Part shown: positions 1 to 25,842 of the stretch, piece after piece | How the letters are laid out: the number at the start of each line of letters is the position of its first letter | How positions within the stretch are numbered: position 1 is the stretch's first letter | Source of the DNA: Aliivibrio fischeri ES114 | GTDB lineage: Bacteria; Pseudomonadota; Gammaproteobacteria; Enterobacterales; Vibrionaceae | NCBI RefSeq assembly: GCF_000011805.1 | Contig: NC_006841.2 | Strand: one strand, 5' to 3' | DNA length: 32,000 nucleotides | Made by a program: the position numbers and the translations under genes | The notes under the pieces: model-generated | Databases searched by the model: none | The model's input: only the letters and a program-made list of their open reading frames with translations | Told to the model about the DNA's origin: nothing

Positions 1-962
1 TTAATAAAATAACGATATTGTGCTGACTCACCCCACGCATACTTTCCATCAGGGCTGATTGAGCGACTTTTTAATTCATATTGTAATGAATGCTCTCTAG
101 TGATAACTAAATAACCTTGTTCTTTTTTCTGCTCTTGTAATTCTTTTGGGTAGATGCTTACACCATACAAACGCTTATCACTCTTCTCATCATAGACACC
201 AACACCAAAATCAGAGACCACATACCTCTTCCCACCGTATATCACCCCCACTTCTGAAAAATGGAAGTCATCGTTCATTTGGGTAGTTTTTCCTGTGGTA
301 ATTTCGTATTTCCAATATTTGGCTCTGTCTTCAAAATACAAATAACTGCTGTCTTCCGCCCAGAGGAACTGAGAATGGCCCCTATCAGCACCCAAAACTA
401 TCGACTCTTGGGTTTCTAAATCAAAAATAACTTTTTCAACGTTATTACTCCAAGCTAAGTAGCGATTATTAGGTGACCGACGCATCATTTTAACCGTTAC
501 CGCTCTGTTATGTGCCCTTGGCGGAACAACATCTAAAAAATCAGTCACTAATCGTAAATCGGTGCCATCTGTTTTTATGCTCCAAATTTTGTCTCTCGCT
601 TCATAAATCGCTTTCTCATCTGATGAGGCATTAGTAAATTCACCATTGTCCCATCTAAAATCCACTCTCGGTAAGTCGTATGAATCCGTATTTGATAAAT
701 CTTCTCTTGGCCACTCTTTGGCGCTGTTCACCACAAAGCAGGGCTTCATTATTCCCGGTATAGTGCCATTGGCTTCTTTCATTAAGATGTAGTTATCTTT
801 AGTGACATAAACTCGGTTATCATCCCACTCTTGCTTGTTAAGCAATTCGACGTCAGTTTTGGGTGGTTCAACTGCTGTACTTAACGTTGAGGGTTCGTCT
901 TGGTTGCATCCGTTTAGGAAAATAAGCGCAGCTAATGCTGTCCATAGGTATTTTGAATTCAT
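1..962 (-). CDS. PD40/TolB-like beta-propeller lipoprotein, paralog of 5894..6985 (partial; 3' end lies beyond window start)
   Basis: Absent from the supplied ORF track because it has no stop inside the window. My manual reverse-strand translation from ATG 962..960 gives MNSKYLWTALAALIFLNGCNQDEPSTLSTAVEPP... and stays open to base 1 (320 codons). Lipobox L-N-G-C at Cys19. The blocks AKEWPREDL, SYDLPR, KIWSIKTDGTDLRLVTD, RSPNNRYLAW, WAEDSSYLYFE and SISPDGKYAWG align with the 363-aa lipoprotein at 5894..6985. The SPxxRY / SPDGKY blocks resemble PD40 propeller blades. AGGGA lies 5 nt upstream of the ATG. Confidence 0.8.
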   Translation of the reverse strand, partial: MNSKYLWTALAALIFLNGCNQDEPSTLSTAVEPPKTDVELLNKQEWDDNRVYVTKDNYILMKEANGTIPGIMKPCFVVNSAKEWPREDLSNTDSYDLPRVDFRWDNGEFTNASSDEKAIYEARDKIWSIKTDGTDLRLVTDFLDVVPPRAHNRAVTVKMMRRSPNNRYLAWSNNVEKVIFDLETQESIVLGADRGHSQFLWAEDSSYLYFEDRAKYWKYEITTGKTTQMNDDFHFSEVGVIYGGKRYVVSDFGVGVYDEKSDKRLYGVSIYPKELQEQKKEQGYLVITREHSLQYELKSRSISPDGKYAWGESAQYRYFI

Positions 963-1052
963 GGTATCCCTACACTAATTCACTGATTGCAATGTCTTGG
1001 TATAGAATGCTGGATTTATTAACCCAGCTCATTTAACAATAAGAACCAGTTT

Positions 1053-4000
1053 TTATTCAGGCGCAGATCGAGTTTCAGTTTTATCTTTTATCCAACCTTT
1101 CAACCATTTTTTCTGTTCTTCTTTACCTTTTTTCTGCAAAGATTCCCATTTTGTTTGAGCCGATATATTGACCTTAGCTAATTTATTTCCTACTTGAATC
1201 CAAGGTAAATTCCCCTCATAAAAACTCTTACTTTCTGGCAATGTTATCGCTAATGGAGGACCTGATAAATATTTGCTTTCAACCTTATCAATACCTTCTT
1301 GATATAAGCCAAAAAGACGTAATTCAGAAGAATAAATTTCATCAGTGTCGTCATCGAGTATTGGTCCAAACGGTCTTAGTCCTTTTACCTTTTTACCAGT
1401 TGGGGATATATAGTCTAAATCGAATTTCATGATATAAACTTTTCTAGTTCGTGTCCCTACATGCAGCATTGATTGTGGCGCACCTTTGACTCTTTCAAGC
1501 ACTTGAGAAGCAAAATTTACAAAGGATTGCTTCTCTTCAGTTTGAGCATCAAATTCAACGTAATTAGCGTCTATATTTTTATAGGTATTGCCTTTCGAAT
1601 ATTTCTCTATATTTTCAAGATCATAATTAATGTCCATTACATGAAAAACAGAACTAAAGTAACTTGGCCCTTTTCCCTTTGAATTCGCTTTTATAAGCAC
1701 AGAATCTTGCTCTTCAATACTTAACTTTAGCTGCATAGCGATTTTATCAAGATTGAAACCAATACTCTTATAATCTTCACGATTATCTTTATCTGCTAAT
1801 AAGGCCACATAAATCGATGCTGATTGTTCTTTACCCCAATTAAATTGTTGCGAATTTATTGGTTTTTGCTTATCAAACCACTCAAATTTATTTCCTATAT
1901 TTAGTGCAGCAAGCGGGGTGACATGCCCTTCTATATATGGCTTTTTACCAGCACCTTTACTACTTTCATTCGCTTTAACAAAGCTTTCAACGAGCAAATC
2001 AGCTTCATTAATTACCGCACTTTGATTACCTAATCCATCAAAGAGATATAACGGTTTAGTTGATGTATCAACACTCCCATCACTATGACATTGAAGCCCA
2101 TAGGTATTATTATCATCAATGCCATAATGAATATTGCTCATATCGTAAAGCACACCACCAACATCCAGTTTTTCTATCGAAACTTTATGCTGATTCAGCT
2201 TAAAGAAATACGACAGAGCTTTGTATTTACCATCTTGTTTCCACGTATCAAAATTTTCATACCAATAACCAGAAAACAAAGGTTTAAGACCGGGGATTTC
2301 ATACTCACCGAACCAATAGGTTGGTTCAAATTCAACAGCAGTTAACGTTTGTTTTTCGTCTTTATCCGCTGCATAGTCATCGCCTAATTGCTGTCTGTAG
2401 TATGACGTCAATTCTTTATCTGATGGCCCGCACACGGTTAAATCAGACACCTCTTTTGCTGAAAACAAAACTTGATATTGAGGGCCATTAACATCAAGCC
2501 AACCGCGATCACAACCATAACTTAATGTTGCTTTAAAGAATTTCTTCGCATCTTCTGAAGCATTTTTAGTTAATACGACTTGTAATTTGACACGAGTAAA
2601 TGGTGTGATACGGTTCGTTTTACCTTCTTCTTTCCACTTTGAATAAGGTATCCATGATTTATCATCATCTCGATCGTTAAGCACCAATAAACGACTAAAG
2701 CCAATATCGTCTGATTTTAAGTCTTGGGCGGTATTGTCAAATAACTTAGCAAAGTCCACAAAACCATTCTCTTTATCATCCATATACAAACTGGTTTGCA
2801 CAGGGAATCCAGTATTAAACGTACCTTGAATTTTAGCTCGTTTAACTAAATGTTTCGTTGCTTCATCCAACGTTGCTTTCTTATTCTTATTGGCATATTC
2901 CACAAAGAAAGAGCGTGCTTGCGATGCACCAGTTTTATCATCTCTCACTCGGTTCAGCCAATTCTGAGCCATGGTATTGTAAGACGTCAGAGGGGCTTCC
3001 CAATTATCATTAAGAATATAAGTTTCTATGTAGTCTTGAACTCGATCGCTTATGAGTTCTTTTTTATAATCACTATTTGAGCTACTCCCTAGCGATATTC
3101 TGGCAAGCAATTCAATTAAACCATTTAACGCCAAAGCTCGAAGTAAGAAGCGTTTTTGTAATTCTTCTGATGTTTTATTCGCCTTTAGAAACGCTTCTAC
3201 CTCTTCTTTTTTTGTTAACTGCTGTTCAATTTTTACCTTAAACCCACGATACTGTTGCAATACTTCAATGTGAATTTTACCTAACTGGTTTAGCTCATTA
3301 ACGTTCTTATATTTGGCTTTAAAATCCTTATAAGCCCCTTCTGTTAATATTGAATCTAAAAAGCTTAACCCACTGTCTGCAATAGTAGCACCCTCTTTAA
3401 TTAACATAACCCCAGCCGCGACAGGGGCGATAGGGGTTAACATTGCCACCCCCATCAAAGAGTTAAATACTGCTGACACTTGCTCTTTTTGATTATTATC
3501 TAACCCAACATCAATCGCCTGTTTTGCTTGACGAACTTTCTCTAAGTCAATCATACCGGTTCGGCTAGGAGGCAAAGCTAATGAGTAGGTTGGAGGCAAT
3601 AGGCTTATTTCAACACGTCTATCTTCCGCTAACGCTGAATCGTCCCCTGTTTCACTCATATCGACTTTAGCGTTGCCTGCACTTATTGGTTGAGTGTTGC
3701 CATGTGACAAAGTAATAATACGCTCAGGTAATGTGTTATCTTCTTTCGCTTTATCTAAAATTGCCTGCTCAACTTGTTTCGCGCGATCCTCAGCAATCGT
3801 CTTATTCGCCTTATCACTGCCAATTCGCCCTGCGTGCCCATCGATTTGAATTCGATAATCTGGGTGTGTTTTTAGTAGTTCAGCAATTTTCTCACAAACT
3901 TTATCGATATCACTACGTAATGTCGTACCTGTATTTGGTAGCTCCGACGAATTAAATTTGAAGTTAATATGAATAATCGCACGAGAGCCTTGCGTAATAA

Positions 4001-5894
4001 TACGCGCTATTTGCTCCTTACCGTCATTATTCAAAACCTTAGTGGCATCTGAAAGCTGCTTAGCCCAGTCCGCCTCGGCTTTTACCATCACAATTTTTTG
4101 CAAATAATCAGTGGTTGCACCATCAAAGTTTTCTTGTTCTTTAGTCGATTGTTTCTCTAATTCTCCTTGTTTATCTACTAGCTGATAAAAATCATACATA
4201 CTGCCAATACTGTCTATAATAGGTAAGCCTTTAGCCAATTTTGTATAAGCACTTCCTTCAAACCAACTTGCCGCGAGATTTCGAGTACTAACGGATGTCC
4301 CATGCTCTTGAAAGTTTTCTTTCATCTCTTTTAGCGCATTCTGCATAAACGTTTTATTAGCAAAACCGTTACGCACCATTCTTCCAAAAGTTTGTGGAGC
4401 AGTTAAATTAAATCGTTGTACTCTTTCGGTAAGCTTAACTGCATCAGTAAACGCATCACGCGCCTCTTTGACCGATTGCAACCCAAATAAGAAACTCGCC
4501 CCAGCAGTAAGCGGCTCAGGTAAAACACCTTCAACAGTTAATTTACCCCAAATGTTTTTTGCCACACTGGTTGCAATTTGCTGGCTAGATAAATCACCAA
4601 ATACACCAATGCCTTTTGTCGCAAAACCTTGAGTATATGATTGCGCTGTCTTTTGCACTGCGGATGCAACACCAAGCGTGGCGACACCAGTGCCTTTCAA
4701 CGCCACTGTATTTCCTTGCTGTGCCATAAAATCAGAATAGCTAGGTAGTGCCGTTGGATATTGATAAATTAGACACTCTTCAAGAGAGATCAAATCACCG
4801 CATACCATCGCCAACTTACCAAAACCGCTTATCGGTTTAAAAGTGACTTTTTCATGCAGTTCATAAATATAAACATCTTGAGTAAAATTTGTTCCAGAAC
4901 GAGTATCATTCGCTTTAAACTTTAACTGACCTTGCTTTACTGAATCAGGAAAAATAGGTTCTATTCCTTCTTCTAATATTTCTTTTTGTTTATCTAAATA
5001 GTCTTTTACCCAGAAACGTGTTCGCAGTAAAAAATAACCATCATCAATTAATGTAGAATCAAAATTAAACACTACGCTCGGTAGTGTAGCTTTAGCTTCA
5101 TCTGTTTTTTCTTGGTTAGGGTTAGGCTTAGTGATAAAACTCGTAGCCAAGACATCCTCAGCTTCACCTGAAGCATCTTGTTTTGATTTCACTTGAATAA
5201 GAGAGACCTCTGCCCCCACATACAAATCACTGCTGAACACCACCCCAACTGAGTGAAAAGCAGGGGTAATAATGCCTTGAATCTCAGTAACTTTGCTTTT
5301 TTTTATACTTTCATACCAATCATTGTAATCACTTTGTTCATCTGTCAGCGGTTTATCAGACTCTTTTTTATAAGGTTCAGCTAACTGACTAACTTTTATT
5401 TTACTGATGGCAAATTCAATTAATTTGGAATATTTTTCTTCCGTTTTTAATTTATTGGAATAAATATCTTTTAGTGAATTGTTTAATGCTTTAACACTGG
5501 TGTGTGTTTCAGCCAGTTGTCCAATCACATTTAATGGCGGAAACATTAATGAATATGGTTTATCTAAATTTAATTCATTAACCGTTAATGGCTGCTTATG
5601 ACGTAAAAAAGTTTGTTTTTTTGTTATGGATTCAGGTGCTGTATTCTCATCAAAATAACCCAACTGACATAATAAACCGTCTTTATTCGAGCCCCATAAT
5701 ACTGGCTTTTCAGCATCATCAACCAAAACAGGCGTAAAAGGGATTGGGCGAACATTGCGCAAATCATCAGCCTCGGTTACATCAGATGATTGATGCCAAG
5801 TCGCTTCAATTCTCTCACCCTCTTCATCTAGATAACTTTTAAAGTAAGCCCCTAATAGATAGATTCCGTGATCATAGGTATTTAAATCAGACAT
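1053..5894 (-). CDS. Giant (1613 aa) protein of unknown function with an internal divergent OmpA/Pal/MotB-like domain; candidate secreted envelope-targeting effector
   Basis: Uninterrupted 4842-nt ORF. ATG at 5894 is preceded by AAGGAGG (complement of 5902..5908) at 7-nt spacing. It overlaps the upstream lipoprotein stop by 1 nt (TAATG). The N-terminus MSDLNTYDHGIYLLGAYFKSY is not a signal peptide. OmpA_C-like block at aa 636-766. One strong hydrophobic helix at aa 808-832. I recognise no catalytic motif in the remaining ~1480 aa (no GxSxG, HExxH or HxKxxxxD). Confidence 0.9.
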   Translation of the reverse strand: MSDLNTYDHGIYLLGAYFKSYLDEEGERIEATWHQSSDVTEADDLRNVRPIPFTPVLVDDAEKPVLWGSNKDGLLCQLGYFDENTAPESITKKQTFLRHKQPLTVNELNLDKPYSLMFPPLNVIGQLAETHTSVKALNNSLKDIYSNKLKTEEKYSKLIEFAISKIKVSQLAEPYKKESDKPLTDEQSDYNDWYESIKKSKVTEIQGIITPAFHSVGVVFSSDLYVGAEVSLIQVKSKQDASGEAEDVLATSFITKPNPNQEKTDEAKATLPSVVFNFDSTLIDDGYFLLRTRFWVKDYLDKQKEILEEGIEPIFPDSVKQGQLKFKANDTRSGTNFTQDVYIYELHEKVTFKPISGFGKLAMVCGDLISLEECLIYQYPTALPSYSDFMAQQGNTVALKGTGVATLGVASAVQKTAQSYTQGFATKGIGVFGDLSSQQIATSVAKNIWGKLTVEGVLPEPLTAGASFLFGLQSVKEARDAFTDAVKLTERVQRFNLTAPQTFGRMVRNGFANKTFMQNALKEMKENFQEHGTSVSTRNLAASWFEGSAYTKLAKGLPIIDSIGSMYDFYQLVDKQGELEKQSTKEQENFDGATTDYLQKIVMVKAEADWAKQLSDATKVLNNDGKEQIARIITQGSRAIIHINFKFNSSELPNTGTTLRSDIDKVCEKIAELLKTHPDYRIQIDGHAGRIGSDKANKTIAEDRAKQVEQAILDKAKEDNTLPERIITLSHGNTQPISAGNAKVDMSETGDDSALAEDRRVEISLLPPTYSLALPPSRTGMIDLEKVRQAKQAIDVGLDNNQKEQVSAVFNSLMGVAMLTPIAPVAAGVMLIKEGATIADSGLSFLDSILTEGAYKDFKAKYKNVNELNQLGKIHIEVLQQYRGFKVKIEQQLTKKEEVEAFLKANKTSEELQKRFLLRALALNGLIELLARISLGSSSNSDYKKELISDRVQDYIETYILNDNWEAPLTSYNTMAQNWLNRVRDDKTGASQARSFFVEYANKNKKATLDEATKHLVKRAKIQGTFNTGFPVQTSLYMDDKENGFVDFAKLFDNTAQDLKSDDIGFSRLLVLNDRDDDKSWIPYSKWKEEGKTNRITPFTRVKLQVVLTKNASEDAKKFFKATLSYGCDRGWLDVNGPQYQVLFSAKEVSDLTVCGPSDKELTSYYRQQLGDDYAADKDEKQTLTAVEFEPTYWFGEYEIPGLKPLFSGYWYENFDTWKQDGKYKALSYFFKLNQHKVSIEKLDVGGVLYDMSNIHYGIDDNNTYGLQCHSDGSVDTSTKPLYLFDGLGNQSAVINEADLLVESFVKANESSKGAGKKPYIEGHVTPLAALNIGNKFEWFDKQKPINSQQFNWGKEQSASIYVALLADKDNREDYKSIGFNLDKIAMQLKLSIEEQDSVLIKANSKGKGPSYFSSVFHVMDINYDLENIEKYSKGNTYKNIDANYVEFDAQTEEKQSFVNFASQVLERVKGAPQSMLHVGTRTRKVYIMKFDLDYISPTGKKVKGLRPFGPILDDDTDEIYSSELRLFGLYQEGIDKVESKYLSGPPLAITLPESKSFYEGNLPWIQVGNKLAKVNISAQTKWESLQKKGKEEQKKWLKGWIKDKTETRSAPE
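3399..3473 (-). other. Predicted transmembrane/membrane-inserting helix (aa 808-832) of the 1613-aa protein
   Basis: AVFNSLMGVAMLTPIAPVAAGVMLI is a 25-residue, almost uncharged hydrophobic stretch about 40 aa after the OmpA-like domain. Two weaker Gly/Ala-rich amphipathic stretches lie upstream: aa 401-413 GTGVATLGVASAV and aa 461-474 PLTAGASFLFGLQS. Judged by eye; no TM predictor was run. Confidence 0.5.
3597..3989 (-). other. OmpA_C/Pal/MotB-like (peptidoglycan-associated) domain, aa 636-766 of the 1613-aa protein
   Basis: GSRAIIHINFKFNSSELPNTGTTLRSDIDKVCEKIAELLKTHPDYRIQIDGHAGRIGSDKANKTIAEDRAKQVEQAIL...RIITLSHGNTQPI...AEDRRVEISLL follows the canonical pattern F-F-S-x-L ... i-x-I-x-GHTD-x-x-G-x-x-x-x-N-x-x-LS-x-x-RA-x-x-V ... 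G-x-G-x-x-x-P ... NRRVEI. Divergences: GHTD is GHAG here (the Asp is lost) and LSxxRA is IAEDRA (the Arg is kept). Confidence 0.75.
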
Positions 5895-6985
5895 TATTTA
5901 TCCTCCTTAAACCATAAACCATTGTTTGCTAATCCATTATAAAGGATCCCTTCTCCTGACATGGCACCATGTGAAAAAGCACGCCATGACCATACTTTAT
6001 CCTCTACACGATCAACGATAGTAACGTAAGTCATTTTGCTTAATGCACTATAATGGGCGTCTTTACCTAAAATTTGAGCAGGAACAAAGCCATCAACCAT
6101 TTGTTTCATTGTTTGCTCTTTGGTATCAAACATCCAGCCATAATCTTGATTTGATCCCCATGCAAACCTTCCTGTTGGACTAATAGACTTCACATTAAAA
6201 ATTCTTTCTTTATCACTTAATGAGCGATCTGAACTCAAAACAAATAAACGCTCATTTGTCTTTAAGTTATAACCCACAACTGCGGCATCAGTCACTTTGA
6301 TAATTTTATCTTCAGTTAACACTGCTTCAGTACGAATTTTATAATCAATCTCACTAATTTCACCAGTCTCTGAATCCCAACGCGAATAGCGATTACGATA
6401 TCTCTCATGATACAAATAGCGACTGTCCTCAGACCAAAGCATATCAAGTGGAGAGGTAGTCTTCTGTACAACTGTCACTTTACCTGTTTTTAAATCATAC
6501 ACACTTTTATGACCACCAGAGCCAGCCCAAGCGACGTAACGATTATTTGGCGAACGAGTTAAATTCCGCACCGCCGTTAAATCTATGGTTGCATCAGTCA
6601 CCAAGCGTAAATCTGTTCCGTCGGTTTTCATGCTCCAAATTTTAAGCCCGCTCTCATATTCATCTTTTGAGCTTGAGTTAGCCCACGCAAATTGAAAGCG
6701 CGGTAAATCGTATGAGCTAGCGTCATTAAGATCTTCTTTTGGCCACTCTTTGGCTTTTTCAACAAAGTAACGTGGAAAATCTTGGTACATTACTTTTAAT
6801 TCTTTTTTTCGCCCAAAAGCCGCATGTTCACTGCTTTCCATAATGTAATAATTATGCACGCCGACATAGGTACGATCTGGATGCTGTTCAACCTTTAATT
6901 GAGCCGCTTCTGCTGCCACACTTTCAGGGTCATTGCACCCCATTAGAGTGATGCTAAATAGTGCGAGTAATAGTATTTTTTTCAT
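5894..6985 (-). CDS. PD40/TolB-like beta-propeller lipoprotein (363 aa); candidate immunity/partner protein
   Basis: Signal peptide plus lipobox MKKILLLALFSITLMGC|NDPE (Cys17, +2 Asn, so probably outer-membrane sorted). Repeated blade-like blocks: IWSMKTDGTDLRLVTD, RSPNNRYVAWAG, WSEDSRYLYHE, SISPTGRFAWGS. The start is 4 nt after the upstream stop. Its stop overlaps the downstream ATG by 1 nt. Confidence 0.8.
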   Translation of the reverse strand: MKKILLLALFSITLMGCNDPESVAAEAAQLKVEQHPDRTYVGVHNYYIMESSEHAAFGRKKELKVMYQDFPRYFVEKAKEWPKEDLNDASSYDLPRFQFAWANSSSKDEYESGLKIWSMKTDGTDLRLVTDATIDLTAVRNLTRSPNNRYVAWAGSGGHKSVYDLKTGKVTVVQKTTSPLDMLWSEDSRYLYHERYRNRYSRWDSETGEISEIDYKIRTEAVLTEDKIIKVTDAAVVGYNLKTNERLFVLSSDRSLSDKERIFNVKSISPTGRFAWGSNQDYGWMFDTKEQTMKQMVDGFVPAQILGKDAHYSALSKMTYVTIVDRVEDKVWSWRAFSHGAMSGEGILYNGLANNGLWFKEDK

Positions 6986-6989
6986 TGTT

Positions 6990-8765
6990 CTAGCCTATTA
7001 ATTCTGAAACTTTAATTTTTGTTTTCAAAACGGATAATTCGTATTCTGTTGTCCCTAAATCAGCACTTGCGCCGCGAAGAATATCAACCTCTTCAACTTC
7101 TTTTGGCCAACCAGAAAATGGGAGATTTAAGAAACCTTCATCGTCAACTTTTGCTTGCCTGAAATAAACTTTCTGTGACCATTCTTGGTCTTCATTTCTT
7201 AACATTATGAAATCATCAGGTTGATCTGTTGTGCTGCAAATTCGGTAACGTAATGTAATTTGATTTTTTGGTGGCATCACCGTCATTGCTGCAATGTTGC
7301 TATCACTTTGCTTATTGATTAATTCTGAACCAAAAACTGAATTATCAACTATAGGTAACTTGTAAATACTATCGCCTTCAAATGTTTGCTGTTTGCTATA
7401 AACAGACATTTCATCAGTGGATACCGCGACATTAATATAATCAGCCTCTAGCGCGTTGATGTCATTTTCATTCAATGATCTTTGGCTATAATAGACATAA
7501 CAATCAGTTTGCTGTTGGCCTAATATTTTATAAGGCAACCAAATATGAGGCATGGGATGACTTATTCGTTTCGTATTATTTGAGCCATCATCTTTTGTTG
7601 GGCTTTCGTGTGTCGCTAGACATATTTCATCGTGATCAAAATCTACAAATTTTAATGTGACCTCTTCTTCTCCTAAATCAAATACTCTTGCTTGTTCACA
7701 TAGATCGAGTTCACCAGAAAAGACTTTTTTTCCTTTTTGATACAATTCAAATTTTTCAAAAGAGACATTAGATTCTGGCAGAAACTCCGATCCTGTAATA
7801 TTTACATGGTAGGTTTTTGATTGGCTTGGATTATCACCTTGATGATAATATTCACAAAAATAACCATTTTTATTAATAGCGATTTCTCGCCATACTTTAT
7901 TTTTCCAAATAACGTAAAAGAAACCAGTTTTATATAATGTGTGTTCGGTTTCTTGCCTCTTCATTGGCACCACAGGCACTAACACATTATCCCACTCTGC
8001 CATTTCTGTTTCTTTGGTTACAGGAGATAATGATTCGCTCAGTAACAGGTTTATCTCTTTGGCTGAATTCATGCTTGGTAACGTCAAGTACAGCGCTCTA
8101 TTTCTATCATCTAAATACGTAAATTCGACGAGACTCCGGTGTCCATTTTTGCTGTCTTTTTTCGGCTTTACTGTCTTTTCATTGATGTTTTTTAATTTTG
8201 AAATCGAGATTGATGCCGCATTATTAGGCCATTGCCCTGCAAACTCGATGACGATTTTATTATCACTCTTTTTTTCTGAAATAGGAGTGATGGATGAAGC
8301 GTTTGAACTTGAACGAAGTAAGGTCGGTTTTGCTTTTAAACGAGAACGAGTAACCGACGGGTTAACCACTTTATCAATACGTTTTTTTAGACCACTTCCT
8401 TGAGCTAAATTCAGAGTATCGATACTTCTATGTTGGTTCATTAACGATAATGCAGCCCACTCCCCCTGCTCAACCAATTGACGAATACGACTGACGGTTT
8501 GAAATACCCCTTGTGAATCACTAATTGCAGAGTGACGCTGTAAATTAATAGGTAACGATGCTTTTAATGAAGATAGATCAGTAAAACGATTAAGATGATT
8601 CAGTAATTCATTGGGAGTGAGAATATACGGTAAGTCTTTTTGGGTAAGTAAGCGACCGGGGATAAGTTTAAATTGGCAGAGCATCTGCATCTCCACATTC
8701 AGTGTATTGAAAGTATCTAAAAATAAATTGCCTGCTATATAAATATGAACAGAGAACTCAGTCAA
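6990..8765 (-). CDS. Hypothetical 591-aa (or ~564-aa) protein, first gene of the operon; no signal peptide, no recognised domain
   Basis: Long ORF. The track start at 8765 is a TTG codon (TTGACTGAG). In-frame ATGs at 8690 and 8684 (..GTGGAGATGCAGATG..) have GGAG 6 nt upstream of the second ATG, so the true start is probably 8684 or 8690. A Ser/Arg/Lys-rich linker (aa ~138-170) separates an N-terminal ~135-aa region from a large beta-rich-looking C-terminal part. Confidence 0.8.
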   Translation of the reverse strand: MTEFSVHIYIAGNLFLDTFNTLNVEMQMLCQFKLIPGRLLTQKDLPYILTPNELLNHLNRFTDLSSLKASLPINLQRHSAISDSQGVFQTVSRIRQLVEQGEWAALSLMNQHRSIDTLNLAQGSGLKKRIDKVVNPSVTRSRLKAKPTLLRSSSNASSITPISEKKSDNKIVIEFAGQWPNNAASISISKLKNINEKTVKPKKDSKNGHRSLVEFTYLDDRNRALYLTLPSMNSAKEINLLLSESLSPVTKETEMAEWDNVLVPVVPMKRQETEHTLYKTGFFYVIWKNKVWREIAINKNGYFCEYYHQGDNPSQSKTYHVNITGSEFLPESNVSFEKFELYQKGKKVFSGELDLCEQARVFDLGEEEVTLKFVDFDHDEICLATHESPTKDDGSNNTKRISHPMPHIWLPYKILGQQQTDCYVYYSQRSLNENDINALEADYINVAVSTDEMSVYSKQQTFEGDSIYKLPIVDNSVFGSELINKQSDSNIAAMTVMPPKNQITLRYRICSTTDQPDDFIMLRNEDQEWSQKVYFRQAKVDDEGFLNLPFSGWPKEVEEVDILRGASADLGTTEYELSVLKTKIKVSELIG

Positions 8766-8880: not shown

Positions 8881-8907
8881 ACAAAAAACGGCCCAATTAA
8901 GGACCGC
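8881..8907 (-). terminator. Rho-independent terminator of the antiporter gene; upstream boundary of the 4-gene operon
   Basis: The minus strand reads GCGGTCC-TTAATT-GGGCCG-TTTTTTGT. That is a 6-7 bp GC-rich stem (one G-U pair), a 6-nt loop and a T6 tract, about 30 nt after the stop at 8936. Confidence 0.7.
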
Positions 8908-8935
8908 TTCATTGCTGTCATCTTTAGGTAAACGT

Positions 8936-14427: not shown

Positions 14428-14775
14428 TTATTTCGCTTGAAGTGCCTGAGCTTTAAATTGAACACCCGCCCAACCAGTTACCATAAAATTGCGAATGTTT
14501 TGATGATCATCCCCTTGTGGATTTTCTAATACATCCTGACGATAATATTGCCCAAAACACGCTAATGTTTGATCTACACTGAGTTGATTTAATAAAGCGA
14601 AAGCAAAAATCTTACATGAGCCATTATTTTGATCAGCCAAATTAACCGTATTACCATTCGCAAATTCTGTTGGTGTAAACTCATAGTGAGACTCTATCAC
14701 GGCCATGGTTTCGGTAAATTCAATCAATTCAGGCTGTGTGCTTAGTTTTTCAATAAATGCGTTTAACGTCATCAT
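14428..14775 (-). CDS. HopJ-family (type III effector HopPmaJ-like) small protein
   Basis: 115 aa. The blocks NNGSCKIFAFALLNQLS, TLACFGQYYRQDVL and GDDHQNIRNF match my recollection of the HopJ/PF08888 family. Lies 30 nt upstream of the oxidoreductase, so probably co-transcribed. Confidence 0.7.
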   Translation of the reverse strand: MMTLNAFIEKLSTQPELIEFTETMAVIESHYEFTPTEFANGNTVNLADQNNGSCKIFAFALLNQLSVDQTLACFGQYYRQDVLENPQGDDHQNIRNFMVTGWAGVQFKAQALQAK

Positions 14776-21095: not shown

Positions 21096-22274
21096 TTAAA
21101 AAACGCGCGGCAGTTCCATTTCTACACTTGAATCACCTGAATCATGAAGCAAATAATTTAGCCATTGCGTGGCTATCACTCCGTTATCTTCTGGTGAATA
21201 CAATACATCAAATGTTGGGGTAAACTGACTTAACCATGAGAGGTCTTTACTCCACTGCCACCTTGTCCATGCGTTAGGATCTAAGCTCCAATGAAACATC
21301 ATGTTATGTTGAACCATATTGACATGATTAAAACCTTGTTGATATGACGCTGTTGCTACAGTAAGCGCATTATTCCACTCGTTTTTACTCCATGCTCGAC
21401 TGTCATACCAATACTCTACAACGACACTGCTTCCGATTTCATTTGCCCAAGTTAACCCTACTAGCGCTTGATAGGCATTCTCTTCTTTTTCTAAAGTGAC
21501 AGGATAACGTGTGATACTTGGCTGCTGATAAGAAAGATACTTTGATTGATACACTGCCGAGCCATGAAACTCCCACGCGGTATCTAGCACAGTAACAACA
21601 CTGGCTCCCAATAACCCTTGTCGAACATCATCATAATAAGCAACCCATTGGTATTCTGTATCTCCCACTAACGCATAGCGTCTTATGCCAATCCCTTGCT
21701 GTTCACCTTGCTCTTCTAACTCACTTCCTTTTTGTTGCGTCCATGATGAGTCGGTATAAATTAACGACCATTCACCTTGGTCATCAAAATAAGAGACCGA
21801 AGCGACACCGGCCCCTTCCTCTACTTGTATACCAACAGGGTTTCGACGATAAGGGGTAAAAATATCCAGCGGGCGATATCCATAACCAACACCCCAATCG
21901 ACTCTTACTTTACCCAACTGTAAATCCAATGGAATATCGGCAATATCAATGCTGCTTTGCCAAAATAATTCACTGACAATCAGCTCACCTTCTGCACTTT
22001 TATCTTCTAATTGATTGCTAGACTGGTAATAAAGATCATTACCTTTAAGAGCCACCACCGCATTCCAGTTCTGATAACCGATTTGAACATCCAGTAATCC
22101 ATTAAATGACTCTTGGTGTTCATTGTCTGTCATTTGAGAAAAAACCGTCTCTCGCTGTTGAACCGTTTCGGCACTCAGCATCCAATCCCACTCGAAAGTC
22201 ATCTCAGAGGCTTGAGCGCTTAAAGAAGCCACCCAAGCACTACAATATACTAGCCGTTCTAGCCAAGATTTCAT
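21096..22274 (-). CDS. Putative outer-membrane beta-barrel protein
   Basis: Signal peptide MKSWLERLVYCSAWVASLSAQA|SE. Alternating aromatic-rich strands. C-terminus ...ELPRVF ends in Phe (OMP beta-signal). The track start is GTG at 22280 (GTGA overlap with the upstream stop). The ATG at 22274 is the alternative. Confidence 0.6.
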   Translation of the reverse strand: MKSWLERLVYCSAWVASLSAQASEMTFEWDWMLSAETVQQRETVFSQMTDNEHQESFNGLLDVQIGYQNWNAVVALKGNDLYYQSSNQLEDKSAEGELIVSELFWQSSIDIADIPLDLQLGKVRVDWGVGYGYRPLDIFTPYRRNPVGIQVEEGAGVASVSYFDDQGEWSLIYTDSSWTQQKGSELEEQGEQQGIGIRRYALVGDTEYQWVAYYDDVRQGLLGASVVTVLDTAWEFHGSAVYQSKYLSYQQPSITRYPVTLEKEENAYQALVGLTWANEIGSSVVVEYWYDSRAWSKNEWNNALTVATASYQQGFNHVNMVQHNMMFHWSLDPNAWTRWQWSKDLSWLSQFTPTFDVLYSPEDNGVIATQWLNYLLHDSGDSSVEMELPRVF

Positions 22275-22276
22275 GA

Positions 22277-23074
22277 TCACAAATCCAACTGTTTGGTGCG
22301 TGACAGATAAGCAGGGTTATAATATTTATCGGCAATCTCTGTTGGTGTAATTTCTTTATATTCAATCACCGTTTTTTGATTGGTTTGAATTTGATCGTTT
22401 AACACCATTGAAATCACTTTGGCTTCACCTTCCCTTACCCCTTTAATAAACCACGCTTCTTTGGCCATTTTTCCTGACCGCAAATACAAATCGGCTTTAA
22501 TCGGAAAACCCGTTCCTTGCTCTAACCATAAATCGATAGTGAAATAACTCGCGCCTTTTGTTGTCGCTTTTAGTTTAATCTTCTCAGTTTGAATCGCTTG
22601 ACCATCGGTTAGCTCGAACGTTGTCGATTCAATCCACTTACCTTGATAATCCTCACTCCACGTTAACGTTGAAATGTCACCCACAGAGGCTTCACCGAGT
22701 AACTTTTGCATCGGTGTAATACGAATTGGGCGGCGACTTTTCGGCATGAGTAACCAATAGTTATCCCCTAGCATCAGCATCTTTTGTCCGGCTTCCACTT
22801 GAGAATTAAACAACACCAAAGATTCTCGATCTTCTCGTGTGTATACCGTGTATTGGCGAGTTTTATCTAGCTCGTCATTTTTGTATAGCTTAACCTCAGA
22901 AACCACTTTTGCTGAACTTTCACCTAAGCGAAAATCATCGGCCTTTTTCACCAGTTGTTTCACTTGAGCCTCGGTTAGACTGCTTGTGTTATCCATACTT
23001 TGTATTGTTGCGGTTGCGGTCGATTGGAAGCCAACAAGCACGAACAGAATAAATAAGTGAGATAATTTAGACAT
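22277..23074 (-). CDS. LolA-like outer-membrane lipoprotein-sorting-protein family protein
   Basis: Signal peptide, then the blocks ESLVLFNSQVEAGQKMLMLGDNYWLLMPKSRRPIRI and LLGEASVGDI. These match what I recall of the LolA_like family commonly encoded next to FtsX-type permeases. Confidence 0.7.
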   Translation of the reverse strand: MSKLSHLFILFVLVGFQSTATATIQSMDNTSSLTEAQVKQLVKKADDFRLGESSAKVVSEVKLYKNDELDKTRQYTVYTREDRESLVLFNSQVEAGQKMLMLGDNYWLLMPKSRRPIRITPMQKLLGEASVGDISTLTWSEDYQGKWIESTTFELTDGQAIQTEKIKLKATTKGASYFTIDLWLEQGTGFPIKADLYLRSGKMAKEAWFIKGVREGEAKVISMVLNDQIQTNQKTVIEYKEITPTEIADKYYNPAYLSRTKQLDL

Positions 23075-24335
23075 AAATAAGCGCCTCTGTAATGGGTTTT
23101 TTCACGCCTTTTTTGGCCGATAAGTATGCTGCCAGTAAACAAATACACACAACACCAACGCCAGCATAAGCCACTAATTCAAATGAGAAATAAATATTCA
23201 GTGGGTAACCGTCCGTTCTTCCCGGTGGTGGTGGCATCTGCACATCAACCACTAACAGCAGTATTGTCGTTAAGGCTGTCATTACTGCACCAAGCACCAC
23301 TCCTATTACCGCAAGTAAGCCAGCTTCTCGTAAGAATGAGTGAATGATCTCGTTAGGATAGCTTCCTAATGCGGATAACGTGCCGATCTCACGTGTTCTT
23401 TCTGTTACTGACATCGTCATGGTATTAAACAAAGCCACAAAAACGACTAATCCCATCACAAAGCCCATCACACCAAAGATAAGATCATATAAATCTTTCA
23501 CTTTGTTGTAGAAAAATGCGCGTTCTTGCCATGGAGTGATTTCAACGTCGTAATCAAGTGGCATTGTTTCTAACTCTTGAGCTAATCGTTGATGTAACTC
23601 TGCAGTTTTCTCGGTATCAAATAAAAATACCGATAAGGTACTCACTTTCTCTGATAGCAGTAGCTCTTGTGCAGAATCGATATGAATATAAAGCTGACGT
23701 TTATCTAACTCAGGCACCCCCGTTGAATAGGTACCATGCACTTTAAAATCAAACGCGTTAAGTGCCCCTTCGCTGGTGGTTGCCAGTATGGTTACCCAGT
23801 CACCTACACTGACGTTGAGGTTTCTCGCTAAATCCACTCCAAGCATGATTTCAGGCTCCATGACATCGTATCGACTTGAGGTAATGTCGGTTAACGTTTT
23901 TCCTGATCTCATGTCTAAAAATGGGCCTTTCATATCGAACTCTCGATCGTTCACCCCAGTTCCCATGAAAATCGTCGATTTTACACCATTAGAAATTAGC
24001 CCTGTAAAATCAATTCGAGGTTGTACGCCTCTTACCTCATCGTATTTCATCATGGTGCGAATTAATTCTGATGTATCTGATAATCCATTACTTAATGGCA
24101 TCTCTTCATCGCTTTCAAAGTAACCCGGTTGACTTAATGTAAGATGGCCCGTATCTCTGGCTGTCGATTCTTTCAGTGAGTCATAAGTATATAAACCAAA
24201 CCCACCCGCACTGGTCAATGCAAATACGGTAATCGTAATAATTAAGATAGAAAGTGCGCTACGACGGCCGTTTCGCAATAAATTCAACCACGCTAAACGC
24301 AGAGAATAAGGTAATAGTGAGATTAACTTGCGCAT
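23067..24335 (-). CDS. MacB/FtsX-type ABC transporter permease with a large periplasmic domain
   Basis: TM1 (ALSILIITITVFALT), a periplasmic domain of about 230 aa, then three C-terminal TMs of FtsX type. ATG 24335 (MRKLISLL) has GGAGG 8 nt upstream. The track start 24389 would overlap the ATPase gene by 67 nt. Confidence 0.85.
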   Translation of the reverse strand: MRKLISLLPYSLRLAWLNLLRNGRRSALSILIITITVFALTSAGGFGLYTYDSLKESTARDTGHLTLSQPGYFESDEEMPLSNGLSDTSELIRTMMKYDEVRGVQPRIDFTGLISNGVKSTIFMGTGVNDREFDMKGPFLDMRSGKTLTDITSSRYDVMEPEIMLGVDLARNLNVSVGDWVTILATTSEGALNAFDFKVHGTYSTGVPELDKRQLYIHIDSAQELLLSEKVSTLSVFLFDTEKTAELHQRLAQELETMPLDYDVEITPWQERAFFYNKVKDLYDLIFGVMGFVMGLVVFVALFNTMTMSVTERTREIGTLSALGSYPNEIIHSFLREAGLLAVIGVVLGAVMTALTTILLLVVDVQMPPPPGRTDGYPLNIYFSFELVAYAGVGVVCICLLAAYLSAKKGVKKPITEALIYV

Positions 24336-25009
24336 GACACGGCCTCCTTGCTGATGGTTCCATCCAGTAAGTTGATGCACGTATCGCAATGTTGCGCCAT
24401 TCGATAATCATGCGTTGCAACAATAAAGGTGGTGCCAATTTCCTTCCCGAGCGCTTTCATAATATCAATCACGGTCTCTGCGGTTTGGCTATCTAAACTG
24501 GCTGTTGGCTCATCCGCAATAACCAAACTTGGTTTATGAACTAAAGCACGTGCAATAGCGACACGTTGCTGTTGTCCACCAGAAAGGTTATCAGGTCGAT
24601 GGTGAATAACATCGCCTAGCCCCACTTTTTCTAGCATTTCAGTGGCTAAGATCCTTTGCTCTTTACTGCTGTATCCATTTAACACTAATGGGTATGCTAC
24701 GTTCTCTAATGCGGTCATCACGGGGACTAAATTAAAACGCTGAAACACAAAGCCCAGTTGGTGACGTCGTAACTTAGCGGCTTCAATAGGGTCTTTAGGG
24801 TAAAACTCACCATCCATTTTAATTTCTCCCTGATAATCCATATCAAGTAAGCCTAAGATGTTTAATAAGGTACTTTTTCCTGAACCGGATGGCCCGCATA
24901 ACGCCACCATGCTGCCTTTTATGATAAAACCATCGACTTGTTTCAAAGCCTCCACACGCTGTAAACCGAGCTGATAAGTTTTTTCTATTCCTTTAAAACT
25001 GATCATCAT
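24323..25009 (-). CDS. ABC transporter ATP-binding protein (MacB/LolD-like)
   Basis: Walker A GPSGSGKST, signature LSGGQQQR, Walker B LVIADEPT, H-loop ATHD. Confidence 0.95.
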   Translation of the reverse strand: MMISFKGIEKTYQLGLQRVEALKQVDGFIIKGSMVALCGPSGSGKSTLLNILGLLDMDYQGEIKMDGEFYPKDPIEAAKLRRHQLGFVFQRFNLVPVMTALENVAYPLVLNGYSSKEQRILATEMLEKVGLGDVIHHRPDNLSGGQQQRVAIARALVHKPSLVIADEPTASLDSQTAETVIDIMKALGKEIGTTFIVATHDYRMAQHCDTCINLLDGTISKEAVSCAS

Positions 25010-25015
25010 TATCTC

Positions 25016-25657: not shown

Positions 25658-25842
25658 CTGTCTGTCCTTAATTAAATGATCCTGTTTGATGTTCACAGAT
25701 TAACTAAGACAAAAATAAAAAAACGCTGAATGCGACGAACGGTAAATAGAGAGGATGAATGGTAATAATGAGTTTAAATACTTGTCATCGATACCTATTC
25801 TGGTTAAGTTTAACGCTTACTAATTAAACAAGGATGCGTGTA

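What the first reader, a model, noticed from the sequence alone, without database searches (positions are those of the whole stretch)
3399..3989. OmpA/Pal-like domain buried in the middle of a signal-less 1613-aa protein, with the canonical DAP-binding Asp replaced: a topology paradox
Seen in sequence:
- The OmpA_C-like block (aa 636-766) is preceded by about 635 aa with no signal peptide and no convincing TM helix.
- It is followed about 40 aa later by the only strong hydrophobic helix (aa 808-832).
- The GHTD motif is GHAG here (Asp replaced by Gly), whereas the Arg of the LSxxRA motif is retained (IAEDRA), as is the C-terminal RRVEI.

Established knowledge: OmpA-like domains act in the periplasm. 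In characterised members (A. baumannii OmpA, Pal) the Asp of GHTD and the Arg of LSxxRA contact the m-DAP of peptidoglycan. MotB/ZorB-type proteins place the TM helix N-terminal to the domain.

Inference: a producer cell could not easily place this domain in its own periplasm by Sec-dependent insertion, because that would require N-out translocation of about 800 aa. This favours delivery into another cell's periplasm, or a non-PG ligand for this domain. Loss of the Asp means PG binding should not be assumed.
Basis: partly seen in the sequence, partly recalled or inferred. Interest (0 to 1): 0.7.

Follow-up and report, generated by a model that had tools for sequence, protein, structure and literature searches.

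The report
Known T6SS toxin with OmpA-like domain
The signal-less 1613-aa protein is Aliivibrio fischeri's copy of VP1390, a known antibacterial toxin that a type VI secretion system injects into a rival cell's periplasm, so the "topology paradox" already has an answer; the lost peptidoglycan-binding Asp is real and is typical of the whole toxin family.

Summary
Window 1053..5894 (-) encodes a 1613-aa protein, VF_A0719 of A. fischeri ES114. It has a Pfam OmpA domain at aa 645-747 (E 5e-15) and no signal peptide. Its only strongly hydrophobic stretch is aa 805-839. It reads GHAG where Pal/OmpA have GH(A/T)D, and the Arg and RRVE are kept.

The protein is not an orphan oddity. It is the third gene of a triad (MIX co-effector, lipoprotein immunity protein, OmpA-like toxin) homologous over its full length to V. 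parahaemolyticus vp1388-vp1389-vp1390. That "binary effector module" was described by Dar et al. 2021. VP1390 is secreted by T6SS1 together with VP1388, kills from the prey periplasm (septal blebs, lysis), and is neutralised by periplasmic VP1389. The paper names A. fischeri triads and flanking extra immunity copies.

What this analysis adds:
- The Asp is replaced by Gly or Cys in 75 of 81 family members, against Asp in 95 of 115 ordinary OmpA domains. The domain is under purifying selection.
- Relatives without the OmpA domain exist.
- The flanking domains match no solved fold.
- This ES114 copy has no T6SS gene within the 32-kb window, and ES114 is reported to lack the cognate T6SS2.

The toxic mechanism remains unknown.

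The parts
6990..8690 (-). VP1388-like MIX co-effector gene. The mechanical ORF runs to a TTG at 8765 (591 aa). The probable true start is ATG 8690 (M26), giving 566 aa.
   Evidence: 40% identity over the full length (E 2e-156) to the 564-aa gene at the same position in the V. diabolicus T6SS1-adjacent triad; that alignment starts at M26. ATG checked. Called genes in sister A. fischeri loci are 564-565 aa. No Pfam family.
7416..7964 (-). MIX-like region of the co-effector, about aa 268-450 in 591-aa numbering. Contains LVPVVPMKR and YKTGFFYVIW, which resemble the shhPhR and hRxGhhYhh motifs.
   Evidence: Position transferred through the alignment from the MIX domain of VP1388, aa 242-423 (PMC8728615). 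Motifs were read by eye and recalled from memory. No MIX profile was available, so this part is inferred.
5894..6985 (-). VP1389-like immunity lipoprotein VF_A0720, 363 aa, lipobox LMGC with Cys17, weak beta-propeller signature.
   Evidence: 44% identity (E 4e-99) to the middle gene of the V. diabolicus triad. Exact match to AAW87790.1. N-terminal signal and lipobox. Weak WD40/propeller hits. Its stop overlaps the toxin start codon at 5894.
1053..5894 (-). VP1390-family T6SS toxin VF_A0719, 1613 aa.
   Evidence: Exact match to AAW87789.1 / WP_011263549.1. 43% identity over 100% of its length to the >=90%-identity cluster that holds the 1592-aa V. parahaemolyticus protein found on 904 contigs. 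That homologue lies next to VasH/ClpV/Hcp/VgrG.
4785..5867 (-). N-terminal alpha/beta domain, aa 10-370. Proposed interface for loading and for the co-effector.
   Evidence: AF2 pLDDT is mostly 75-90. No significant PDB fold match, best E 0.035. This region does not BLAST-align in dyad-type relatives that lack a MIX gene. Function is inferred.
3990..4772 (-). Helical, Gly/Ala-rich linker region, aa 375-635.
   Evidence: AF2 models helices with low confidence, pLDDT about 30-60 apart from aa ~440-480 (about 77-82). No TM-grade hydropathy.
3597..3989 (-). OmpA_C/Pal-like domain, aa 636-766 (Pfam match aa 645-747).
   Evidence: Pfam E 5.4e-15. Pal 1oap E 1.2e-5. dN/dS 0.12-0.27 between A. fischeri alleles.
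3783..3839 (-). Pocket motif GHAGRIGSDKANKTIAEDR. Gly689 sits at the canonical DAP-binding Asp position; Arg704 is retained.
   Evidence: Translation. Alignment to Pal [20 protein letters not shown]. Family census at the Asp site: Gly 41, Cys 34, Asp 2 of 81, against Asp 95 of 115 in generic OmpA domains.
3378..3482 (-). Conserved hydrophobic segment, aa 805-839, with a central T-P-I-A-P. Possibly a membrane-inserting hairpin.
   Evidence: KD peak 1.97. The P-x-A-P pattern is conserved across the superfamily, and the segment is also present in OmpA-less members. AF2 pLDDT is about 30 here. Translation.
2805..3377 (-). Helical region, aa 840-1030, carrying the most conserved family motifs (KRFLLRALALNGL, NDNWE).
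   Evidence: Invariant blocks in A1 and A2. AF2 helices, pLDDT 60-75 for aa ~870-990 and about 45 for aa ~990-1030.
1065..2717 (-). Beta-rich C-terminal region, aa ~1060-1610.
   Evidence: AF2 pLDDT mostly 70-94, with dips to about 57. No significant PDB fold match: best E 6e-3, TM <= 0.1, arrestin/Ig-like sandwiches only. No Pfam family.
1..962 (-). Second VP1389-like immunity lipoprotein paralogue (MNSKYLWTALAALIFLNGC...), cut by the window edge.
   Evidence: 35% identity to the 363-aa lipoprotein, E 5e-45. The syntenic locus L004 has two full-length copies here, 404 and 405 aa.

Best explanation
The protein is a member of the VP1390 family, the toxin of a type VI secretion "binary effector module". 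It needs no signal peptide because it never crosses the producer's inner membrane by Sec.

Proposed sequence of events:
1. It is made in the cytoplasm and binds the MIX co-effector encoded two genes upstream. I infer that the binding is through its N-terminal ~370-aa domain.
2. The pair is loaded on the VgrG spike.
3. The T6SS fires the pair into a neighbouring cell's periplasm.
4. There the Pal-like domain places the toxin at the cell wall, or at a wall-associated partner.
5. The conserved core from about aa 776 onward (hydrophobic hairpin, helical region, beta-rich C-terminus) causes septal blebbing and lysis.
6. Sibling cells are protected by the periplasmic beta-propeller lipoproteins encoded on either side of the toxin gene, which bind the toxin.

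What is shown and what is inferred:
- Shown for the V. parahaemolyticus orthologue: co-dependent secretion, VgrG association, periplasmic toxicity, binding to the immunity protein.
- Shown here: homology of all three genes, the domain anatomy, and family-wide loss of the DAP-binding Asp.
- Inferred: which domain does what, and whether this ES114 copy is ever fired.
For: - The triad order and tight coupling match vp1388-90.
- All three genes are homologous over their full length to the V. diabolicus / V. parahaemolyticus group: 43%, 40% and 44% identity.
- That homologue, and A. fischeri alleles at 82-86% identity, lie directly beside VasH-ClpV-Hcp-VgrG-DUF2169.
- Dar et al. 2021 show T6SS1-dependent co-secretion, co-IP with VgrG1, PelB-dependent toxicity, septal lysis and VP1389 immunity. 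They explicitly report A. fischeri triads with flanking extra immunity copies.
- There is no signal peptide or upstream TM segment.
- The immunity genes carry lipoboxes.
- The gene is intact and under purifying selection, dN/dS about 0.16-0.21.
- Distant dyads keep the toxin-immunity pairing (hhalign probability 98% and 96%). They lack the MIX gene and have an N-terminus that does not align to this one. One sits behind VgrG-PAAR-Rhs.
- OmpA-less relatives retain the region from aa ~776 onward.
Against: - No T6SS gene lies in this 32-kb window.
- ES114 is reported to lack T6SS2, the system related to V. parahaemolyticus T6SS1. It has only T6SS1, which has no hcp or vgrG in its cluster and no demonstrated activity (PMC6130350, PMC9972734, PMC9515649). 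Deployment of this copy is therefore unproven.
- I could not match the sequence to accession NP_797769.1 directly. The link goes through a >=90%-identity cluster of V. parahaemolyticus proteins and through gene context.
- The domain-to-function assignments are inference. Neither flanking region has a recognisable fold or catalytic motif.
- PG binding by the OmpA-like domain is untested, and the canonical Asp is missing.
Confidence: 0.88

Rival explanations
1. Relic or immunity-island reading. In ES114 the triad is an orphan left beside the site of the lost or absent T6SS2 island. The toxin is no longer delivered. The locus is kept mainly because its immunity lipoproteins protect ES114 against T6SS2-positive A. 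fischeri strains carrying related toxins. This concerns present-day function and does not dispute family membership.
For: - ES114 lacks T6SS2.
- The window holds no T6SS gene, no tRNA and no island repeat.
- Immunity paralogues are duplicated downstream.
- The syntenic locus L004 also carries a 163-aa fragment of a divergent toxin gene, typical of effector/immunity graveyards.
- Speare et al. note that nonlethal strains keep auxiliary effector/immunity clusters.
Against: - The 4.8-kb toxin ORF and the co-effector ORF are intact.
- dN/dS is 0.07-0.08 over aa 771-1613 against the closest allele. That is hard to reconcile with long disuse, although the comparison cannot isolate the ES114 branch.
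- ES114 is still killed by T6SS2-positive strains, so any protection is at best partial.
- ES114 retains T6SS1 and two auxiliary clusters that might supply a spike.
Confidence: 0.3
2. Membrane-active toxin. The toxic step is insertion of the conserved hydrophobic hairpin (aa 805-839) and the surrounding helices into a prey membrane, as in colicin-like or Tme-like effectors. The OmpA-like domain would serve only as a wall tether.
For: - The hydrophobic segment is the most widely conserved feature and persists in OmpA-less relatives.
- It is unpacked in the AF2 model, pLDDT about 30, within an all-helical region of about 260 aa.
- No invariant His, Cys, Asp or Glu column appears in the 46-sequence C-terminal alignment.
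- Prey cells take up propidium iodide.
Against: - No similarity to colicin or other pore-former families.
- The summed Hessa-scale value is +3.4 with two Pro, which is marginal for a TM segment.
- The immunity protein is a periplasmic lipoprotein propeller rather than an integral membrane protein. Immunity to pore-formers is usually an integral membrane protein (established knowledge).
- Septal blebbing of cytoplasmic content points to a cell-wall defect.
Confidence: 0.25
3. Producer-envelope protein. The protein would be a PG-anchoring component of the producer's own envelope (a MotB/ZorB-type stator unit, a TssL-long-form/TagL-type T6SS anchor, or an unusual outer-membrane protein), inserted by an unrecognised route.
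For: - It is annotated as "OmpA family protein" or "outer membrane protein".
- There are weak hits to PADLOC ZorB (E 1.7e-4) and TIGR03350 TssL long form (23 bits).
Against: - Those hits cover only the OmpA-like domain and fall far below cutoff: 23 bits against 139.8.
- There is no signal peptide and no TM helix N-terminal to the domain.
- There is no MotA/ZorA-like partner gene.
- VP1390 is secreted and is dispensable for T6SS1 activity.
Confidence: 0.02

Closest known systems
VP1388-VP1389-VP1390 binary effector module of Vibrio parahaemolyticus T6SS1 (Dar, Jana, Bosis & Salomon, EMBO Rep 2021/2022; PMC8728615)
   Same: - Same three genes in the same order with tight coupling.
- 40-44% identity over the full length for each gene.
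- Central OmpA_C-like domain in the toxin and no signal peptide.
- Immunity protein with a signal peptide or lipobox.
- Extra immunity copies flanking the operon, as that paper describes for Aliivibrio.
- Sister alleles in A. fischeri sit at the edge of the homologous T6SS cluster.
   Different: This copy has no T6SS gene within the 32-kb window, in a strain reported to lack that T6SS. Nothing about this particular gene has been tested; no paper in the library mentions VF_A0719.
Pal / OmpA C-terminal / MotB peptidoglycan-binding domains (e.g. E. coli Pal 1oap, A. baumannii OmpA 3td3)
   Same: Significant profile and sequence match. The Arg of LSxxRA, the Asn and the RRVE motif are conserved.
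   Different: - The Asp that pairs with the Arg to hold the m-DAP carboxylate (AbOmpA Asp271/Arg286, PMC12108004) is Gly here, and Gly or Cys in 75 of 81 family members.
- The neighbouring Tyr is Ala.
- The domain is internal to a cytoplasmically made protein rather than C-terminal to a signal peptide, a barrel or a TM helix.
Other periplasm-acting T6SS cargo effectors with periplasmic immunity proteins (Tse1/Tse3, Tae/Tge classes) and MIX-domain effectors
   Same: Delivery to the prey periplasm, a cognate periplasmic immunity protein, a lytic phenotype, and association with a MIX marker.
   Different: - No amidase, muramidase or lipase fold or motif was detectable.
- The MIX domain is on a separate, co-secreted protein rather than fused to the toxin.

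Membership tests
VP1390-type toxin of the T6SS binary effector module | Full-length homology to VP1390 | tested here: met
   43% identity over 100% of the query to P0043, E 0. The >=90% cluster of P0043 holds the 1592-aa V. parahaemolyticus protein seen on 904 contigs. I had no sequence for NP_797769.1 itself, so the link is indirect.
VP1390-type toxin of the T6SS binary effector module | Internal OmpA_C-like domain in a large protein without a signal peptide | tested here: met
   Pfam OmpA at aa 645-747, E 5.4e-15. No N-terminal signal or upstream TM segment by hydropathy.
VP1390-type toxin of the T6SS binary effector module | VP1388-like MIX co-effector encoded as the first gene of the operon | tested here: met
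   40% identity over the full length, E 2e-156, to the first gene of the V. diabolicus triad. MIX motifs were seen by eye only; no MIX profile was available.
VP1390-type toxin of the T6SS binary effector module | VP1389-like periplasmic immunity protein encoded between co-effector and toxin | tested here: met
   44% identity, E 4e-99. Lipobox LMGC. A second paralogue lies downstream.
VP1390-type toxin of the T6SS binary effector module | Genomic association with a V. parahaemolyticus T6SS1-like cluster (true of 65% of operons in Dar et al.) | tested here: not met
   The window holds no T6SS gene, and ES114 lacks T6SS2 by literature. The feature is met for alleles at 82-86% identity in other A. 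fischeri strains and for V. diabolicus. It is not an obligatory feature.
VP1390-type toxin of the T6SS binary effector module | T6SS-dependent secretion co-dependent with the co-effector; toxicity in the periplasm; neutralisation by the immunity protein | not testable with these tools
   Shown only for V. parahaemolyticus VP1390.
Canonical peptidoglycan-binding OmpA_C/Pal domain | OmpA_C profile match above the curated threshold | tested here: met
   56 bits against a cutoff of 27.2.
Canonical peptidoglycan-binding OmpA_C/Pal domain | Asp of GH(T/A)D that binds m-DAP | tested here: not met
   Gly689 aligns with the Asp of Pal GHAD. In the family the site is Gly 41, Cys 34, Asp 2 of 81; in generic domains it is Asp in 95 of 115.
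Canonical peptidoglycan-binding OmpA_C/Pal domain | Arg of LSxxRA that binds m-DAP | tested here: met
   Arg704 is retained; the site is Arg in 81 of 81 family members.
Canonical peptidoglycan-binding OmpA_C/Pal domain | Actual binding to peptidoglycan | not testable with these tools
   No experiment found in the papers read; later reviews state PG binding without an experiment.
MotB/ZorB-type stator or TssL-long/TagL-type anchor | TM helix N-terminal to the OmpA-like domain, a MotA/ZorA or T6SS membrane-complex partner, and a full-length profile match | tested here: not met
   The PADLOC ZorB hit (E 1.7e-4) covers only aa 645-763. TIGR03350 scores 23 bits against 139.8. There is no upstream TM segment and no partner gene.
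Colicin-like or Tme-like pore-forming effector | Sequence or fold match to a pore-forming domain, and a membrane-embedded immunity protein | tested here: not met
   No Pfam hit. No PDB fold match, although the model is poor in this region. The immunity protein is a lipoprotein propeller with no TM segment.

The most novel reading that the evidence does not exclude
The OmpA-like domain of the whole VP1390 family may no longer be a canonical m-DAP binder. The Asp has been replaced by Gly or Cys in 75 of 81 members, while the Arg is invariant and the domain evolves under purifying selection. This suggests a re-tuned pocket that recognises something else in the prey periplasm. Candidates are a modified or septal form of the stem peptide, or a protein partner of Pal-like domains. 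That could explain why lysis starts at the septum. The OmpA-less relatives show that the domain is a targeting add-on rather than the killing part.
Probability: 0.2. Interest if true: 0.55.

Novelty: already known. Interest (0 to 1): 0.25.

Why it matters
Little changes for the biology of this locus. It is a member of a published T6SS effector class, and A. fischeri triads were already catalogued. Three modest points could still be useful.

- PG binding. Reviews list VP1390 as "peptidoglycan-targeting" on the strength of its OmpA_C domain, yet the family almost universally lacks one of the two residues that hold m-DAP. PG binding therefore deserves a direct test.
- Where the toxicity lies. The region from aa ~776 onward is the conserved core and persists without the OmpA domain, while the N-terminal region co-varies with the presence of the MIX co-effector. 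This gives a rational map for truncation experiments on a toxin whose mechanism is still unknown.
- The ES114 copy. ES114, the standard "non-lethal" squid symbiont, keeps an intact, selectively constrained toxin and co-effector without the matching T6SS. That raises the question of whether T6SS1 can fire it, or whether only the immunity genes matter.

Tried and rejected
- **Repeat homologue search.** A second homologous-protein search with alignment A1 returned the same 46 proteins. Diversity came only from the full HMMER scan of representatives.
- **TolB-Pal mimicry.** I considered whether the immunity beta-propeller binds the Pal-like domain as TolB binds Pal. A profile of eight immunity homologues hits generic WD40/propeller proteins weakly (Notchless 1.2e-4, regucalcin 3.6e-4) and does not hit TolB. 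No PD40 Pfam match appears. The idea is unsupported and kept only as speculation.
- **Catalytic Cys-His dyad at GHxC.** Rejected as the general toxic mechanism, because the experimentally toxic V. parahaemolyticus cluster members and this protein have Gly at that site.
- **Other family searches.** Pfam on the isolated N- and C-terminal parts and on six OmpA-less relatives found nothing. PADLOC gave only a weak ZorB hit restricted to the OmpA domain.
- **T6SS2 island check.** I tested whether the window contains a junction of the T6SS2 island. There is no 16-bp island repeat and no tRNA.
- **Literature.** The supplementary datasets of Dar et al. are not held, so I could not confirm that VF_A0719 is listed by accession. 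No paper mentions VF_A0719.
- **Redundant call.** One search repeated at a looser threshold and added nothing.
Full report
**Observation**

The finding's coordinates (3399..3989) lie inside the minus-strand ORF 1053..5894. That ORF encodes 1613 aa, and the coordinates correspond to aa 636-832.
- Pfam places an OmpA domain at aa 645-747 with E 5.4e-15, 56 bits against a gathering score of 27.2.
- NCBIfam gives sub-threshold partial matches to YiaD, Pal, LptF, OmpA and others across aa 643-764.
- The best solved-structure sequence match is E. coli Pal (1oap), E 1.2e-5.
- In that alignment GHAGRIGSDKANKTIAEDRA pairs column for column with Pal [20 protein letters not shown]. The Asp of GH(T/A)D is Gly689, the Tyr of YN is Ala, and Arg704 and RRVEI are kept.
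- A. baumannii OmpA uses exactly this Asp/Arg pair (Asp271/Arg286) to bind diaminopimelate (PMC12108004).
- The N-terminus (MSDLNTYDHGIYLL...) is not a signal peptide. M1 is invariant among the six homologues aligned in A1, and the ORF cannot extend upstream.
- In 19-residue hydropathy scans the only strong segment is aa 805-839, with peak Kyte-Doolittle 1.97 at aa 814-832. It contains two prolines and has a positive summed Hessa-scale value, so it is a marginal TM candidate.
- Nothing upstream of aa 636 exceeds 1.34, and that peak lies in confidently modelled beta strands.

**What it is**

The protein is identical to VF_A0719 of Aliivibrio fischeri ES114, chromosome II (AAW87789.1). The gene before it is VF_A0720, annotated as a putative lipoprotein.

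On the minus strand the order is:
1. a 591-aa ORF with no Pfam family;
2. the 363-aa lipoprotein, whose stop overlaps the next start codon;
3. the 1613-aa protein;
4. a second lipoprotein, 35% identical to the first, cut by the window edge.

Full-length homologues exist throughout Aliivibrio (76-93% identity) and in Vibrio (37-43%). The V. diabolicus homologue belongs to a >=90%-identity cluster dominated by a 1592-aa V. parahaemolyticus protein found on 904 contigs. It lies in the arrangement 564 aa - 367 aa - 1592 aa, directly beside genes for a VasH-like sigma-54 activator, ClpV, Hcp, VgrG and a DUF2169 protein. The 591-aa and 363-aa window proteins are 40% and 44% identical over their whole length to the first two genes of that triad.

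This is the vp1388-vp1389-vp1390 operon at the start of the V. parahaemolyticus T6SS1 cluster, characterised by Dar, Jana, Bosis and Salomon (PMC8728615). That paper shows the following:
- VP1388 (MIX domain, aa 242-423) and VP1390 bind each other and co-precipitate with VgrG1.
- Each needs the other for T6SS1-dependent secretion.
- VP1390 is the toxin. It is toxic to E. coli when exported with PelB and far less so in the cytoplasm.
- It causes blebbing and lysis, often at the septum.
- VP1389 binds VP1390 and protects only if it keeps its signal peptide.
- Triads occur in 1,375 strains, including A. fischeri.
- Aliivibrio genomes often hold more than one copy.
- Extra VP1389 copies flank the operons.
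- 65% of operons adjoin T6SS clusters.

The protein reaches a periplasm by injection, and it is the prey's periplasm rather than the producer's.

**Context in A. fischeri**

Alleles 82% and 86% identical to VF_A0719 sit next to VasH-ClpV-Hcp-VgrG-DUF2169 in other A. fischeri strains (L003, L005). This is the T6SS2 island that resembles V. parahaemolyticus T6SS1 (PMC9515649).

The ES114 copy is elsewhere, downstream of an NhaC/Tet(35)-type antiporter gene and a terminator-like hairpin. The window contains no T6SS gene, no tRNA and no copy of the 16-bp island repeat.

A strain with a 93%-identical allele (L004) is syntenic with the window. It continues with two immunity paralogues, a 163-aa fragment of a divergent toxin gene, and a Big_7/CBM_5_12 gene. 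In L005 the same Big_7/CBM gene separates a divergent 1578-aa paralogue (25% identity in the C-terminal half) from the T6SS2-adjacent triad.

ES114 is the classic T6SS2-negative, non-lethal strain. Its T6SS1 lacks hcp and vgrG in the cluster and has no demonstrated activity, although auxiliary clusters exist (PMC6130350, PMC9972734).

Even so, the toxin gene is intact and constrained. dN/dS is 0.16-0.21 overall against three alleles and 0.07-0.08 over aa 771-1613 against the nearest one. dS varies from 0.06 to 1.1 along the gene, which indicates recombination.

**The Asp substitution generalises**

A full HMMER scan of 1.84 billion representatives with aa 414-1613 found 30 proteins at E < 1e-30 and 67 at E < 1e-10. 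Many are 1500-1750 aa long and align over the full length at 21-34% identity. They come from Vibrio, Aliivibrio, Pseudoalteromonas and Spartinivicinus.

| Site | VP1390-family members (match to the region after the OmpA domain) | Ordinary OmpA-domain hits from the same search |
|---|---|---|
| Canonical Asp position | Gly 41, Cys 34, Ser 3, Asp 2, Ala 1 (of 81) | Asp in 95 of 115 |
| Arg position | Arg in 81 of 81 | Arg in 111 of 115 |

These counts are; a first pass is.

The OmpA-like domain itself is under purifying selection, dN/dS 0.12-0.27. Loss of the Asp is therefore a maintained family trait and not decay. I found no mention of it in the papers read. Later reviews simply state that the domain binds peptidoglycan.

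**Anatomy and likely division of labour**

The AF2 models were built on 41-46 diverse sequences.

| Region | AF2 result |
|---|---|
| aa 10-370 | well-folded alpha/beta domain, pLDDT mostly 75-90 |
| aa 375-635 | helical, low confidence except aa ~440-480 |
| aa ~795-868, including the hydrophobic segment | helical, pLDDT about 30 |
| aa ~870-990 | helical, moderate confidence |
| aa ~990-1030 | helical, low confidence (pLDDT about 45) |
| aa ~1060-1610 | beta-rich, pLDDT mostly 70-94 |

- Neither flank has a significant match among solved structures by Foldseek or in Pfam.
- The 46-sequence alignment of the C-terminal part has no invariant His, Cys, Asp or Glu column. This is weak evidence against a classical hydrolase.
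- Six relatives of 1100-1330 aa align only from aa ~776 onward. They have no OmpA domain or any other Pfam domain, yet keep the hydrophobic segment.
- Distant subfamilies from Pseudoalteromonas (L007) and V. tapetis (L008, behind VgrG-PAAR-Rhs) keep an upstream gene homologous to the immunity family (hhalign probability 98% and 96%). They have no MIX gene, and their N-terminal ~550-640 aa do not BLAST-align with ours.

From this I infer three roles:
- The N-terminal domain is the interface for loading and for the co-effector.
- The OmpA-like domain is an accessory targeting module.
- The region from aa ~776 onward is the toxic core.

None of these assignments has been tested.

**Rivals**

- **Producer-envelope anchor (MotB/ZorB, TssL-long/TagL).** Excluded by the absence of an upstream TM helix and partner genes, by sub-threshold domain-only hits, and by the published secretion data.
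- **Membrane-active mechanism through the hydrophobic hairpin.** This remains possible. A soluble lipoprotein immunity protein and septal extrusion of cytoplasm fit a wall defect better.
- **Relic or immunity island in ES114.** Whether the ES114 copy is ever fired is open. The relic reading is plausible, but the strong purifying selection on the toxin argues against long disuse.
- **TolB-Pal-style interaction between the immunity propeller and the Pal-like domain.** Considered, but it has no sequence support.

**Verdict**

However, the feature is a member of an already described T6SS effector class, in a species already named in that description.

The residual points of interest are the family-wide loss of the DAP-binding Asp, the existence of OmpA-less relatives, and the presence of an intact module in a strain without the cognate T6SS. 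Interest is low to moderate. Novelty: already known.

Noticed in passing
window 1..8765 (whole triad); literature on ES114: ES114 is reported to lack T6SS2, the T6SS related to V. parahaemolyticus T6SS1. It still keeps an intact co-effector/immunity/toxin triad with dN/dS of about 0.2 overall and 0.07-0.08 in the C-terminal half against the nearest allele. Dar et al. say the vast majority of triad-bearing genomes do have such a T6SS.
   Followed up: partly
window 1053..5894 (-) compared with L004, L005, L003: Divergence is mosaic along the toxin gene. Against L004, dS is 0.45 in aa 1-400 but 0.06 in aa 771-1613. Against L005 and L003, the OmpA-domain dS is about 1.1. This suggests recombination between alleles, with the N-terminal part the most variable.
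   Followed up: partly
L004 14936..17855; L005 1..6308: The locus syntenic with the window continues with two full-length immunity paralogues (404 and 405 aa), a 163-aa N-terminal fragment of a divergent VP1390-like gene, and then a 1121-aa Big_7/CBM_5_12 gene. In a T6SS2-positive strain the same Big_7/CBM gene separates a divergent 1578-aa paralogue (25% identity) from the T6SS2-adjacent triad. The ES114 triad may therefore sit just outside the T6SS2 island site.
   Followed up: partly
Family members P0069-P0132 (position aligned to window aa 689): In 34 family members the canonical Asp is Cys, directly after the conserved His (GHACQVG, GHTCDIG). A His-Cys pair in a PG-binding pocket is curious. 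It cannot be the general toxic mechanism, because the V. parahaemolyticus cluster members (taken to be the VP1390 orthologue group) and this protein have Gly.
   Followed up: partly
P0106, P0122, P0123, P0124, P0143, P0152: These relatives of 1100-1330 aa align only from window aa ~776 onward. They lack the OmpA domain and any Pfam domain, but keep the hydrophobic segment and the downstream core.
   Followed up: partly
window 8690..8765 (-): The mechanical ORF for the MIX co-effector starts at a TTG (591 aa). Homologues align from M26 and sister loci-565 aa, so the real start is probably ATG 8690 (566 aa).
   Followed up: yes
L008 1..12755 (V. tapetis): A distant toxin-immunity dyad without a MIX gene sits at the end of a VgrG - PAAR - 303-aa - Rhs (1674 aa) module. 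This suggests an alternative loading route for family members with a different N-terminus.
   Followed up: partly
window 8885..8910 (-): A terminator-like hairpin (10 pairs followed by a T-run) lies just after the NhaC/Tet(35)-like antiporter gene and upstream of the triad. This is consistent with the triad being its own transcription unit.
   Followed up: no
window 14428..14775 (-): A 115-aa HopJ type III effector family protein (Pfam E 5e-52) lies among ordinary metabolic and regulatory genes. It is also present in the syntenic locus L004.
   Followed up: no
window 21096..25696 (-): A cluster of a LolA-like protein, a MacB/FtsX-type permease, an ABC ATPase, and two ORFs with no Pfam family (394 and 226 aa). 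Unrelated to the finding.
   Followed up: no
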